From the IMG/VR virus record IMGVR_UViG_3300035162_004754, positions 1 through 64,000 of that record: a stretch of 64,000 nucleotides of DNA. One strand, written 5' to 3'. The notes under the pieces were generated by a model. That model had not been told where the DNA came from and ran no database searches. It worked only from the letters and a program-made list of their open reading frames with translations. Below, piece by piece: positions 61,524 through 64,000 of this stretch. The stretch comes from a virus. The translations under genes were made by a program, and so were the position numbers. Every line of letters starts with the position of its first letter. Within the stretch, counting starts at the first letter, position 1.

Positions 61524-62483
61524 GTGGCAGTAAAACCTATAGTAAAATTTATTAGAAACTCTAGAGGTGGAGATGGTGATGTAGATCCTCAACGTTTATT
61601 TGGAAATTTAGCACAGACTAATCACTATCAAGTAGATTTTTCATCTCTTTCAACTTTTGGTGGTCAAGGACTTTTGGGATATATAGAGTCTAAGTTTGGA
61701 GTTAATTTAGATTTTATTTCTCGTAATTCTGGTCTTCTTTGTTCTGAAGCATCATTACCAGGAACTAGTCTTGCGACGGCAGAAGTAAAAGACAACTTTA
61801 TGGGAATATCGCAAGAATTTGCCCATACGAGATTATACACTGATTTTGATTTTACTTTTTATGTCGATAGTGACTATAATAATCTGAGATTTTTTGAGGG
61901 ATGGATTGATTTTATTTCAAGTGGCAGTGAAATTGGTGATGGAGCACTTCCCTCACAATCTAATTACTATCGTAGAATGAGATATCCCGATAGTTATAAG
62001 TGTCAGACAATATCAATTACTAAATTTGAAAAGAATTTTGGACCTAGAATAACATATTCATTCATGAATGCATTTCCAAAATTAATCAGTGCAGTTCCCG
62101 TTTCTTATGGTGGTGCCGATGTATTAAAAGTGAGTGTAAGTTTTAATTATGATCGATATGTTATAGGTAATAATGGATTTTCTAAAGGATTTCAAGGTTC
62201 TTTTGCTGATCCTAAACAACAATCTTCGGAATTGAAACAAGTACAACTTAATACACTTAAATCTGTAACTCCTCCGGCAGCAACAGGAGCACCGGCAGCA
62301 GCAACAGAGGTAGCAAGACAAACAAGACTTGAAGCAGAGACACAAAGAATTGTGGATAGTAATACTGTTCCTGCCGGTTCTTTTGGTATTACCCCTAGAT
62401 CTGCTCCGGAAGGCGCTTTTGGAATTTCTGAAGCAGGGAGAAGACAAGCATATGCTAATCGTGCTCAATTGGGTGAAATATAA
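61524..62483 (+). CDS. Tail tube initiator / gp54-like protein
   Basis: LLCSEASLPG.SLAT, FTFYVD, FFEGW, Y.F.NAFP, V.F.Y. Confidence 0.7.
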   Translation: MAVKPIVKFIRNSRGGDGDVDPQRLFGNLAQTNHYQVDFSSLSTFGGQGLLGYIESKFGVNLDFISRNSGLLCSEASLPGTSLATAEVKDNFMGISQEFAHTRLYTDFDFTFYVDSDYNNLRFFEGWIDFISSGSEIGDGALPSQSNYYRRMRYPDSYKCQTISITKFEKNFGPRITYSFMNAFPKLISAVPVSYGGADVLKVSVSFNYDRYVIGNNGFSKGFQGSFADPKQQSSELKQVQLNTLKSVTPPAATGAPAAATEVARQTRLEAETQRIVDSNTVPAGSFGITPRSAPEGAFGISEAGRRQAYANRAQLGEI

Positions 62484-62520: not shown

Positions 62521-63243
62521 ATGCCTTTACCTAAGATTAATACTCCAACGTATGAGATGACGTTGCCTTCCACAGGAAAGAAGATTAAATATAGACCTTT
62601 CCTTGTGAGAGAAGAAAAGATTTTAATTCTGGCAATGGAATCTGAAAATATGACAGATATTACCAATTCCATTATACAAATTCTTTCTGATTGTATTCTT
62701 ACTGAAAATGTAAAAATCGAATCTCTTGCCACTTTTGATATTGAATATTTGTTTCTAAATGTAAGAGCAAGATCTGTTGGAGAAACTGTTGATGTGAATA
62801 TTACTTGTCCTGATGATGGTGAGACACAGGTAGAAATGTCGATTGATATTGATTCGATTAAGATTCAGAAGACTAGAGGTCATAAGAATATTATTAAACT
62901 AGATGATGAACTCTCAATGAAACTTCGTTATCCTTCACTGGATCAATTTGTTGAGAATAATTTTGAGACCGGAGAAGTTGTAAGTGAAGTTGGACAATCA
63001 CTTGCAATGATTTCATCTTGTATTGAGATGATTTACAATCAAGAAGAAAGTTGGGAAGCATCCGAATATTCGAGAAAAGAACTTGATGAGTTCCTTGAAC
63101 AAATGAACACAAAACAATTTAAACAAATCGAAAAGTTCTTTACTACAATGCCAAAACTTTCTCATACAATTGCAGTAAAAAATCCAGAAACTGGTGTGGA
63201 ATCTGAAGTTGTTTTGGAAGGACTAGCAAGTTTTTTCAGTTAG
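62521..63243 (+). CDS. Baseplate hub protein (cyanophage gp26 annotation)
   Basis: MPLPKI.TPTYE, YRPFLV.EEK.L, DIEYLFL..RA.SVGE, FF.TMPKL, LEGLASFF. Confidence 0.88.
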   Translation: MPLPKINTPTYEMTLPSTGKKIKYRPFLVREEKILILAMESENMTDITNSIIQILSDCILTENVKIESLATFDIEYLFLNVRARSVGETVDVNITCPDDGETQVEMSIDIDSIKIQKTRGHKNIIKLDDELSMKLRYPSLDQFVENNFETGEVVSEVGQSLAMISSCIEMIYNQEESWEASEYSRKELDEFLEQMNTKQFKQIEKFFTTMPKLSHTIAVKNPETGVESEVVLEGLASFFS

Positions 63244-63245
63244 GT

Positions 63246-63425
63246 ATGGCTCATACAAGTCTTGAGTCATACTACAAGATAAATTTTGCCTTGATGCAGC
63301 ATCATAAATATTCATTAACAGAACTAGAAAATATGATTCCGTGGGAGAGAGAAGTTTATCTTGCTCTACTTCAACAATACATTGAAGAAGAAAACCTAAA
63401 GGCACAACAGCAAAGTGGAATCTAA
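63246..63425 (+). CDS. Baseplate hub assembly protein (cyanophage gp51 annotation, 59 aa)
   Basis: Hand translation MAHTSLESYYKINFALMQHHKYSLTELENMIPWEREVY...; absent from ORF track. Confidence 0.85.
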   Translation: MAHTSLESYYKINFALMQHHKYSLTELENMIPWEREVYLALLQQYIEEENLKAQQQSGI

Positions 63426-64000
63426 CTTAAGTATAAAGACAACAAATACACCAAAGTTTAATGTAAAGACTGTTTCATCGGCAGTTTTTGGAAAAGAAGA
63501 TAGTGCTGGAGGTAGTTCCGGAGAATCTCTCAAAAATATTCATAAGACACTAAGTAAATTATCTGGACATATAAGAAAATCTCTAGTTCGGATTAAGGCA
63601 TTAGAGTTTAATTTATCAAAAATAACTCCTAAAGTTGAAGAAGTAGAAAAGAAAGTAATAGTTAATGCTGAAAAAATTACAAAAATTAAAAATATAATAA
63701 AAACACAGAAAAGTAATATAGGTGAAAAACTTCCTGGTAGTAATAAAGACGATTTAACTAAAAATCTAATAGAAACAAATAAAATTCTTGTTCAAATTCA
63801 AAAAGAACTTATGAGAAGTTCTGCATTGAGATCGCAAGGTGGAAGAGGTGAAACTGATAGAGAAAAAAGAAGTGCATCTAAAGCAAAACTCAATAAAGAA
63901 GAGAGTCAATTAGAAAAATCATCTAGAAGAATACAAAAATCTGTAAGTGAAAAGTCAAATGAATCTTTAGCACCGGTCAAGGGAATCTTTGGTCGTATTA
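63415..64000 (+). CDS. Partial tape-measure/baseplate hub-like coiled-coil protein (runs off window)
   Basis: GTG start, frame open to window end, Lys/Glu-rich helical composition; position after gp26/gp51. Confidence 0.6.
   Translation, partial: MESNLSIKTTNTPKFNVKTVSSAVFGKEDSAGGSSGESLKNIHKTLSKLSGHIRKSLVRIKALEFNLSKITPKVEEVEKKVIVNAEKITKIKNIIKTQKSNIGEKLPGSNKDDLTKNLIETNKILVQIQKELMRSSALRSQGGRGETDREKRSASKAKLNKEESQLEKSSRRIQKSVSEKSNESLAPVKGIFGRI

What the first reader, a model, noticed from the sequence alone, without database searches (positions are those of the whole stretch)
63229..63425. Putative programmed -1 frameshift fusing gp26 to gp51, like lambda G/GT, ahead of the tape-measure-like gene
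Seen: gp26 ends AGT TTT TTC AGT TAG, giving slippery heptamer T TTT TTC (63231-63237) in the correct phase. After a 6-nt spacer comes a 10-bp hairpin GTATGGCTCA(63244-63253)/TGAGTCATAC(63263-63272) that also buries the gp51 ATG. The -1 frame reads TTT TTT CAG TTA GGT ATG GCT..., directly in frame with gp51. Established: long-tailed phages make tail assembly chaperones G and GT by a -1 frameshift just upstream of the tape measure gene. Inference: these two genes form such a chaperone pair giving 240-aa and ~301-aa products. I am not aware of this being described for T4-like cyanophages.
Basis: partly seen in the sequence, partly recalled or inferred. Interest (0 to 1): 0.8.

Follow-up and report, generated by a model that had tools for sequence, protein, structure and literature searches.

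The report
Frameshift in T4-like hub-chaperone gene
The gp26 gene of this marine T4-like cyanophage very probably makes a 240-residue and a 301-residue protein because some ribosomes slip back one base on a strictly conserved TTTTTTC, so one gene does what phage T4 does with its two genes 26 and 51.

Summary
gp26 (62521-63243) ends AGT TTT TTC AGT TAG, the 59-codon 'gp51' ORF lies in the -1 frame, and an 11-bp hairpin starts 5-6 nt after the heptamer.

- An in-phase T_TTT_TT(C/T/A) sits at this spot in 250 of 255 related loci examined, including GC-rich phages where TTT is a rare codon.
- In 115 of 162 loci the -1 frame has no ATG, GTG or TTG for 13 codons after the slip site, yet it is conserved as protein.
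- The predicted trans-frame product aligns without a gap at the junction with T4-type gp51, which is itself a gp26-like domain plus the same C-terminal tail.
- Tevenvirinae, which carry separate genes 26 and 51, use non-slippery GAA TTC TTY.
- The first ~90 residues of gp26 fold like the HK97 tail assembly chaperone (Z 7.4).

The hairpin is specific to this clade. The tape-measure identity of the next gene is only weakly supported.

I found no published description; a 2016 review says G-T frameshifting is conserved in long-tailed phages 'except T4'. This scan has already made the same claim on many other genomes (421 notes), so it is not new to the scan.

The parts
62521..63243 (+). gp26-type gene (short form, 240 aa): N-terminal TAC-like domain plus a second domain. 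The zero-frame product ends ..SFFS.
   Evidence: ORF. PF12322 T4_baseplate E 3.4e-74. PHROG 150 E 3.6e-81. AF2 model pLDDT 94.8. Residues 1-~91 match HK97 TAC 2ob9_B at Z 7.4.
63231..63237 (+). Slippery heptamer T_TTT_TTC (X_XXY_YYZ), the proposed -1 shift site.
   Evidence: Sequence. Invariant in 78 of 78 close relatives although the preceding codon changes amino acid (AGT/GCT/AAT/TCT) and always ends in T. Present in 250 of 255 loci overall. Synonymous diversity is 0.00 at both Phe codons against a gene mean of 0.30.
63241..63243 (+). Zero-frame stop codon of gp26, one codon after the heptamer.
   Evidence: It varies among relatives (TAG/TGA/TAA) while its distance from the heptamer is kept.
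63243..63273 (+). Hairpin 5-6 nt downstream of the heptamer: 11 bp, loop 63254-63262. It contains the ATG at 63246. Probable frameshift stimulator in this clade.
   Evidence: -14.7 kcal/mol, z -4.27. 99% of cells paired in 35 distinct sequences, with one compensatory G.U to U-A change in S-SSM7, but covariation is weak (40 of 500 shuffles). Synonymous diversity is 0.00 at the four codons of the 3' arm.
63237..63425 (+). -1 frame extension (62 codons plus stop), read after C63237 is read a second time. It includes the annotated 59-aa 'gp51' ORF 63246-63425.
   Evidence: PHROG 634 E 2.6e-28 and PHROG 150 profile positions 239-278. BLASTP to the C-terminal tail (211-246) of T4-type gp51, E 5e-6. 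One HSP through the junction with no gap at the junction.
63415..64000 (+). Start of the next gene (553 aa, runs to 65076 of the parent record): candidate gp29-like tape measure protein.
   Evidence: PHROG 5062 and 7025 'tail length tape measure protein', E 6e-8 and 6e-4, over short stretches only. Atlas leads at 0.85 to tape-measure clusters including PF25671 T4_Tape_measure. No Pfam or NCBIfam hit above cut-off.
61524..62483 (+). Upstream tail-tube-family gene (gp54/gp48-like tube initiator or cap): context only.
   Evidence: PF23849 Phage_TTP_2 E 3e-22. PHROG 45 tail tube E 5.7e-42. The same position is annotated 'baseplate tail tube initiator' in phi-Grn1 and OLIVR5.

Best explanation
A programmed -1 ribosomal frameshift. 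Most ribosomes translating gp26 stop at TAG 63241 and release the 240-aa short form. A minority slip back one base with tRNA-Phe on UUU and UUC of U_UUU_UUC, probably helped in this clade by the 11-bp hairpin 5-6 nt downstream. They read on in the -1 frame and add 62 residues, giving a 301-aa long form (gp26-51). The two forms share an N-terminal domain with a tail-assembly-chaperone fold; the long form adds a helical tail. By analogy with lambda G/GT and with T4 gp26/gp51 (both non-virion hub-assembly chaperones), the pair would act in a fixed ratio to assemble the baseplate hub and tape-measure complex. Shown here: the sequence anatomy, its conservation, coding in the -1 frame without a start codon, homology to T4 gp51, and fold similarity to TACs. 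Inferred: that slippage occurs, its efficiency, the role of the hairpin, and the binding partners.
For: (1) Conservation. T_TTT_TTC is kept in 78 of 78 close IMG/VR relatives while the preceding amino acid and the stop codon vary. It is kept in 10 of 10 named cyanophages of different genera, in 152 of 152 further IMG/VR loci as TTC, TTT or TTA, and in Cr30, pf16, Aeromonas G2, ACP17, KVP40-like phages, Marzo, RSP15, OLIVR5 and D484. (2) Nucleotides are conserved, not amino acids. One class encodes F-L with T_TTT_TTA. In GC-rich ACP17 only 2 of 36 sampled Phe codons are TTT, in Marzo 5 of 33, in pf16 10 of 41, yet the heptamer is kept. (3) 115 of 162 loci have no ATG/GTG/TTG in the first 13 -1-frame codons after the site, but L4, H6, L9 and Y12-13 are (nearly) invariant, and codon position 3 varies most (0.318/0.235/0.458). 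(4) T4-type gp51 is PF12322 plus a tail homologous to the window's gp51. The trans-frame product aligns with it in one HSP with no gap at the junction. (5) Natural control: three Tevenvirinae genera with separate genes 26 and 51 use GAA TTC TTY. (6) The hairpin is stable and its synonymous sites are frozen. (7) TAC fold: 3fgx_B Z 7.8, YqbN 3klu_A Z 7.4, HK97 TAC 2ob9_B Z 7.4; the next hit, an uncharacterised protein of a phage-inducible element, scores 5.0 and unrelated proteins 4.2 or less. The same three came top with a second model. (8) Gene order is tube-family gene, this gene, then a candidate tape measure.
Against: There is no direct evidence of the 301-aa protein or of slippage. In the window's own clade an ATG lies 2 nt after the stop, so gp51 could also be made separately. 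Hairpin covariation is weak (one compensatory pair; 40 of 500 shuffles reach the score), and other clades have different hairpins or none that is convincing. The fold match has Z below 8, a range the tool warns can reflect a common arrangement. Two Vibrio phages (K364, SD25) lack a canonical heptamer and start the small ORF with their own ATG. The tape-measure identity of the next gene is weak.
Confidence: 0.88

Rival explanations
1. There is no frameshift. gp51 is a separate 59-aa protein started at ATG 63246 by termination-reinitiation (stop and start are 2 nt apart), and the T-run only encodes a conserved Phe-Phe.
For: The window and its clade have an ATG right after the stop. Vibrio phages K364 and SD25 have TAATG overlaps and no canonical heptamer. 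Databases annotate gp51 as a separate gene.
Against: 115 of 162 loci have no start codon for 13 codons although that stretch is conserved as protein. The window's Met aligns with an otherwise invariant Leu. The heptamer is kept against codon bias and across amino-acid change. Tevenvirinae avoid it. In T4-type gp51 the same tail is covalently joined to a gp26-like domain. The hairpin would occlude this ATG. Some free gp51 may still be made in this clade alongside the fusion.
Confidence: 0.07
2. The frame change happens at the RNA level. RNA polymerase stutters on the T6 run and adds one U, so a minority of transcripts encode the fusion in one frame.
For: A homopolymer run lies at the site. Some lineages have T7 (Cr30, pf16, RSP15 and 53 IMG/VR loci). 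Rare database proteins carry the fusion as a single ORF.
Against: The run is never longer than 7 in 250 loci. From my own knowledge, not tested here, known productive slippage sites usually need 8-9 or more. The last base is C, T or A and never G, as tRNA re-pairing rules predict. A hairpin at 5-6 nt is the ribosomal geometry. Contigs from three RNA libraries cross the site with no inserted base, though contigs cannot exclude a minority species.
Confidence: 0.04
3. Coincidence: an AT-rich genome, a conserved FF motif and a short neighbouring ORF, with no recoding.
For: TTTTTTC is not enriched in the window (23 found, 33.6 expected).
Against: All the comparative results above, especially the GC-rich phages, the F-L class with T_TTT_TTA and coding without a start codon.
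Confidence: 0.01

Closest known systems
Lambda gpG/gpGT and the conserved -1 frameshift of tail assembly chaperone genes (Xu, Hendrix and Duda 2004; reviewed in PMC5009743)
   Same: Two products share an N-terminus. A -1 shift on an X_XXY_YYZ heptamer occurs a few codons before the zero-frame stop. The gene lies between a tube-family gene and a candidate tape-measure gene. The N-terminal domain has a TAC-like fold.
   Different: There is no detectable sequence similarity. The shared part is 240 aa with an extra second domain (lambda gpG is far shorter, from memory). The heptamer is U_UUU_UUC rather than G_GGA_AAG. The review states the frameshift is conserved 'except T4'. Binding to a tape measure or tube protein is untested.
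Phage T4 gp26 (208 aa) and gp51 (249 aa), baseplate hub assembly chaperones (PMC3004832)
   Same: Same Pfam family PF12322. gp51 is a gp26-like domain plus a tail homologous to the window's -1 extension, colinear with the predicted fusion.
   Different: T4 and other Tevenvirinae encode the two forms as two divergently transcribed paralogous genes with a non-slippery GAA TTC TTY. Here a single gene with recoding is proposed.
HK97 tail assembly chaperone (PDB 2OB9) and B. subtilis prophage protein YqbN (3KLU)
   Same: Residues 1-~91 of the gp26 model superpose: Z 7.4, rmsd 4.0-4.1, 85-86 residues aligned of 104-119.
   Different: Sequence identity is 7-9%. Z is below 8. gp26 has a further ~150-residue domain with no PDB match. 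Foldseek found nothing significant.

Membership tests
Programmed -1 ribosomal frameshift site | X_XXY_YYZ heptamer in the zero-frame phase | tested here: met
   T_TTT_TTC at 63231-63237, in phase.
Programmed -1 ribosomal frameshift site | The -1 frame is open from the site into a conserved coding extension | tested here: met
   62 codons in the window; 59-68 codons in 152 other loci. Coding signature without a start codon.
Programmed -1 ribosomal frameshift site | The site is conserved beyond what the encoded amino acids and codon usage require | tested here: met
   Tevenvirinae serve as a negative control.
Programmed -1 ribosomal frameshift site | Downstream stimulatory RNA structure 5-9 nt from the heptamer | tested here: inconclusive
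   A stable hairpin exists in this clade (z -4.27) with frozen synonymous sites. It has only one compensatory pair, and other clades have different hairpins or none that is clear.
Programmed -1 ribosomal frameshift site | The trans-frame protein is actually produced | not testable with these tools
   Needs mass spectrometry, a reporter assay or ribosome profiling.
Tail assembly chaperone pair (lambda G/GT type) | Short and long forms share an N-terminus through a frameshift near the 3' end | tested here: met
   At the sequence level.
Tail assembly chaperone pair (lambda G/GT type) | The gene lies immediately upstream of the tape measure gene | tested here: inconclusive
   The next gene (553 aa) has only weak tape-measure signals. 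In Cr30 an annotated tape measure lies two genes downstream.
Tail assembly chaperone pair (lambda G/GT type) | TAC fold of the shared domain | tested here: inconclusive
   The three best PDB matches are 3fgx_B (an uncharacterised Bacillus protein), prophage protein YqbN and the HK97 tail assembly chaperone, at Z 7.4-7.8. They stand clear of all later rows (5.0 or less) but lie below the tool's caution line of 8.
Tail assembly chaperone pair (lambda G/GT type) | Binds the tape measure (shared part) and the tube protein (extension); absent from virions | not testable with these tools
   T4 gp51 is reported absent from the particle (PMC3004832). Nothing is known for this phage.
Pfam PF12322 T4_baseplate (gp26/gp51 family) | Match above the gathering score | tested here: met
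   249.7 bits against a cut-off of 24.5.
T4 gp51-type long form | A C-terminal tail homologous to T4 gp51 residues ~211-246 follows the PF12322 domain | tested here: met
   it is joined only through the -1 frame.

The most novel reading that the evidence does not exclude
gp26 and gp51 are the G and GT of the T4 superfamily. On this reading the ancestral and still prevailing state is one gene with a -1 frameshift, and Tevenvirinae (T4 itself) replaced recoding by a gene duplication. That would remove the textbook exception ('except T4') and assign the long-unexplained T4 gp51 'catalyst' a tape-measure and hub chaperone role. A further, less likely layer: in the window's clade the hairpin both stimulates slippage and hides a secondary start codon, giving three products.
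Probability: 0.55. Interest if true: 0.75.

Novelty: new member of a known kind. Interest (0 to 1): 0.65.

Why it matters
Tail-chaperone frameshifting is one of the most widely conserved recoding events in viruses, and T4 is cited as the exception to it. If this site works, that exception applies only to T4's own subfamily. Marine cyanophages and many other T4-like phages would use the standard solution, and T4 gp26/gp51 become interpretable as a duplicated G/GT pair.

There is also a practical consequence. Current annotations call gp51 as a separate ORF, call it too short, or miss it. The ORF is un-annotated in ACG-2014b, ACG-2014e, S-PRM1, Aeromonas G2 and ACP17. Its annotated start lies about 17 conserved codons too late in S-RIM2 and Syn19.

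Tried and rejected
Single queries from phi-Grn1 and Marzo returned only 2 loci each.
- Foldseek against the PDB gave nothing significant; HK97 TAC ranked 6 with E 0.78.
- The PDB sequence search with gp26 gave 0 hits.
- NCBIfam gave no hit for gp26 or gp51.
- BLASTP of the downstream 553-aa protein against the annotated Cr30 tape measure found no similarity, so the tape-measure label stays weak.
- L155 looked like the only locus without a heptamer. It has an internal in-frame TGA, and the true 3' end carries the heptamer.
- Hairpin covariation is too little to claim.
- The heptamer count in the window is not enriched.
- RNA-library runs are held only as contigs, so they cannot give the start, level or minor indels of the RNA, and DNA carry-over is possible. 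Parts of the stretch without cover mean nothing.
- Nine literature searches found no description of this frameshift. This covers only the open-access library.
- I could not retrieve a measured efficiency for U_UUU_UUC from PMC4066793, because the string search found no match.
- The Pfam copy on hand lacks PF28602, which the protein database lists on gp51-type sequences. I do not know its name.

Full report
**Observation.** The + strand ORF 62521-63243 (240 aa) ends AGT TTT TTC AGT TAG. This places T_TTT_TTC (63231-63237) in X_XXY_YYZ phase, one sense codon before the stop. The 59-codon ORF 63246-63425 is in the -1 frame, and the -1 reading TTT TTT CAG TTA GGT ATG has no stop. RNAfold adds a G.U pair, giving 63243-63273 with 11 bp, -14.7 kcal/mol, z -4.27 and 0 of 200 shuffles as stable. 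TTTTTTC by itself is not unusual in this AT-rich window: 23 copies against 33.6 expected. So the case rests on comparison with relatives.

**Identity of the genes.**
- The long ORF is PF12322 T4_baseplate (E 3e-74) and PHROG 150 'baseplate hub'.
- The short ORF is PHROG 634 'baseplate hub assembly catalyst'. It also matches positions 239-278 of the 282-position PHROG 150 profile, whose first 232 positions match gp26.
- The explanation is that T4-type gp51 (Tequatrovirus locus L095, 250 aa) is itself PF12322 over residues 1-201 (E 3e-55). Its residues 211-246 are homologous to the window's gp51 (BLASTP E 5e-6).
- The window's trans-frame product aligns with that gp51 in a single HSP that crosses the junction with no gap at the junction (see also the alignment).
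- T4 therefore encodes the short form (gp26) and the long form (gp51) as two paralogous, divergently transcribed genes.

**Conservation of the site.**
- Among 78 IMG/VR relatives (79-99% identical gp26) the run TTTTTTCAG is invariant. The preceding codon changes amino acid (AGT, GCT, AAT, TCT) but always ends in T, and the stop varies among TAG, TGA and TAA.
- Ten named cyanophages of ten genera all have NNT TTT TTC, one codon, then a stop.
- A further 152 of 152 untruncated IMG/VR loci from two other clades carry the in-phase heptamer: C 73, T 53, A 26. This count includes L155, which my script first missed because of an internal TGA.
- The TTA class encodes Phe-Leu, so the nucleotide run is kept while the amino acid changes.
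- A class with eight codons between the heptamer and the stop also keeps the heptamer.
- Outside the cyanophages, the heptamer is present in Cr30, pf16, Aeromonas G2, ACP17, KVP40-like phages, Marzo, RSP15, OLIVR5 and D484.
- In GC-rich ACP17 only 2 of 36 sampled Phe codons are TTT, in Marzo 5 of 33 and in pf16 10 of 41, yet the heptamer stands.
- The exceptions are informative. Three Tevenvirinae genera, which have separate genes 26 and 51, write the same E-F-F as GAA TTC TTY. Two Vibrio phages (K364, SD25) have no canonical heptamer and start the small ORF at an ATG that overlaps the stop.

**Coding without a start codon.** In 115 of 162 loci the -1 frame has no ATG, GTG or TTG in the 13 codons after the site. 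Even so, Leu4, His6, Leu9 and Tyr/Phe12-13 are invariant or nearly so. Variation is also highest at the third codon position of that frame (0.318, 0.235, 0.458). These residues must therefore be translated, and only a shift from gp26 can reach them. The window's ATG at 63246 aligns with the otherwise invariant Leu4. It is a feature of this clade, not the ancestral start. Several GenBank records either fail to annotate this ORF or start it about 17 conserved codons too late.

**Hairpin.** In the window's clade plus P-SSM2, S-PRM1 and S-SSM7, 99% of cells pair across 35 distinct sequences. There is one compensatory change (G.U to U-A in S-SSM7, which changes two amino acids). Formal covariation is weak: 40 of 500 shuffles reach the observed score. 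Synonymous diversity is 0.00 at the two Phe codons and at the four codons of the 3' arm, against a gene mean of 0.30. Other clades show different hairpins at a similar distance (P-HM1, Cr30, S-SM2) or nothing convincing. I read the hairpin as a probable stimulator specific to this clade.

**Function.**
- The AF2 model of the window's gp26 is confident (pLDDT 94.8).
- An all-against-representatives structure search puts three proteins on top: 3fgx_B (an uncharacterised Bacillus protein, Z 7.8), prophage protein YqbN (7.4) and the HK97 tail assembly chaperone 2ob9_B (7.4, rmsd 4.0, 85 residues aligned).
- All three cover model residues 1-~91. The next hit, an uncharacterised protein of a phage-inducible element, scores 5.0, and unrelated proteins score 4.2 or less.
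- A model of a rare database protein that carries the fusion as one ORF (P0160, 63% identical to the predicted product over 299 residues) gives the same three hits.
- That model also shows a disordered junction (residues 239-243) followed by a helical tail.
- Z is below 8, so this is supportive rather than conclusive.
- The gene order is a tube-family gene, this gene, then a 553-aa protein with weak tape-measure signals.
- T4 gp26 and gp51 are listed as hub assembly chaperones, and gp51 is not in the particle (PMC3004832).

**RNA level.** Contigs from three metatranscriptome libraries cross the junction with no inserted base. This fits ribosomal rather than transcriptional slippage, but the evidence is weak.

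**Novelty.** Nine full-text searches found no report of this site. The 2016 recoding review states that G-T frameshifting is conserved in long-tailed phages 'except T4' (PMC5009743). The scan's own notes hold 421 entries that make the same claim on other genomes. I reached the reading before consulting them. I then checked two of their leads myself: the 'except T4' quotation and the TAC fold. The family is large, with 4,676 cluster representatives at E <= 1e-3.

**Verdict.** The -1 frameshift reading is very probably right (0.88). The chaperone role is plausible by homology and fold. Nothing has been shown at the protein level.

Noticed in passing
L155:962-1000 (IMG/VR relative): The gp26 homolog carries an in-frame TGA in the middle of the gene (..DQSFN*IAAC..), and the protein continues in the same frame. 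This could be a sequencing error, a pseudogene or readthrough.
   Followed up: partly
P0160, P0165, P0169, P0176, P0193 (database proteins, 297-306 aa): These are rare single-ORF versions of the gp26-gp51 fusion. Each is a singleton or near-singleton cluster and aligns over the full length of the predicted trans-frame product. They are either indel errors in the T-run or phages that fixed the long form.
   Followed up: partly
L098:2190-2230 (Vibrio phage K364) and L107:2010-2050 (Vibrio phage SD25): These gp26 homologs end ..CTT TTT GCG TAA and ..GTT TTT CGC TAA, without a canonical heptamer. The gp51-like ORF starts at an ATG overlapping the stop. This may be a third arrangement (a separate small protein) or a one-tRNA slip on T_TTT.
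   Followed up: no
window 63160-63215 versus alignment A1: Non-cyanophage gp26 homologs carry CxxC...CPxCG motifs, a zinc-ribbon-like pair of cysteine pairs. The window's protein has lost them (..NPETGVES..).
   Followed up: no
parent record G000 65081-71707 (L100:3082-9997): Downstream of the candidate tape measure lie five genes: a 575-aa protein with a Peptidase_M23 domain, a 524-aa protein (PHROG 2588/5867), a 430-aa PHROG 350 tail protein, and two gp5-like pieces (OB domain, then a 582-aa hub/lysozyme-family protein). Together these form a hub module.
   Followed up: partly
window 61524-62483: A tail-tube-family protein (PF23849) lies immediately upstream. Its annotation differs between genomes: hypothetical, tail tube, or tube initiator.
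   Followed up: no
Pfam column: The protein database tags gp51-type sequences with PF28602. That family is absent from the Pfam copy available here, so its name and description could not be read.
   Followed up: no
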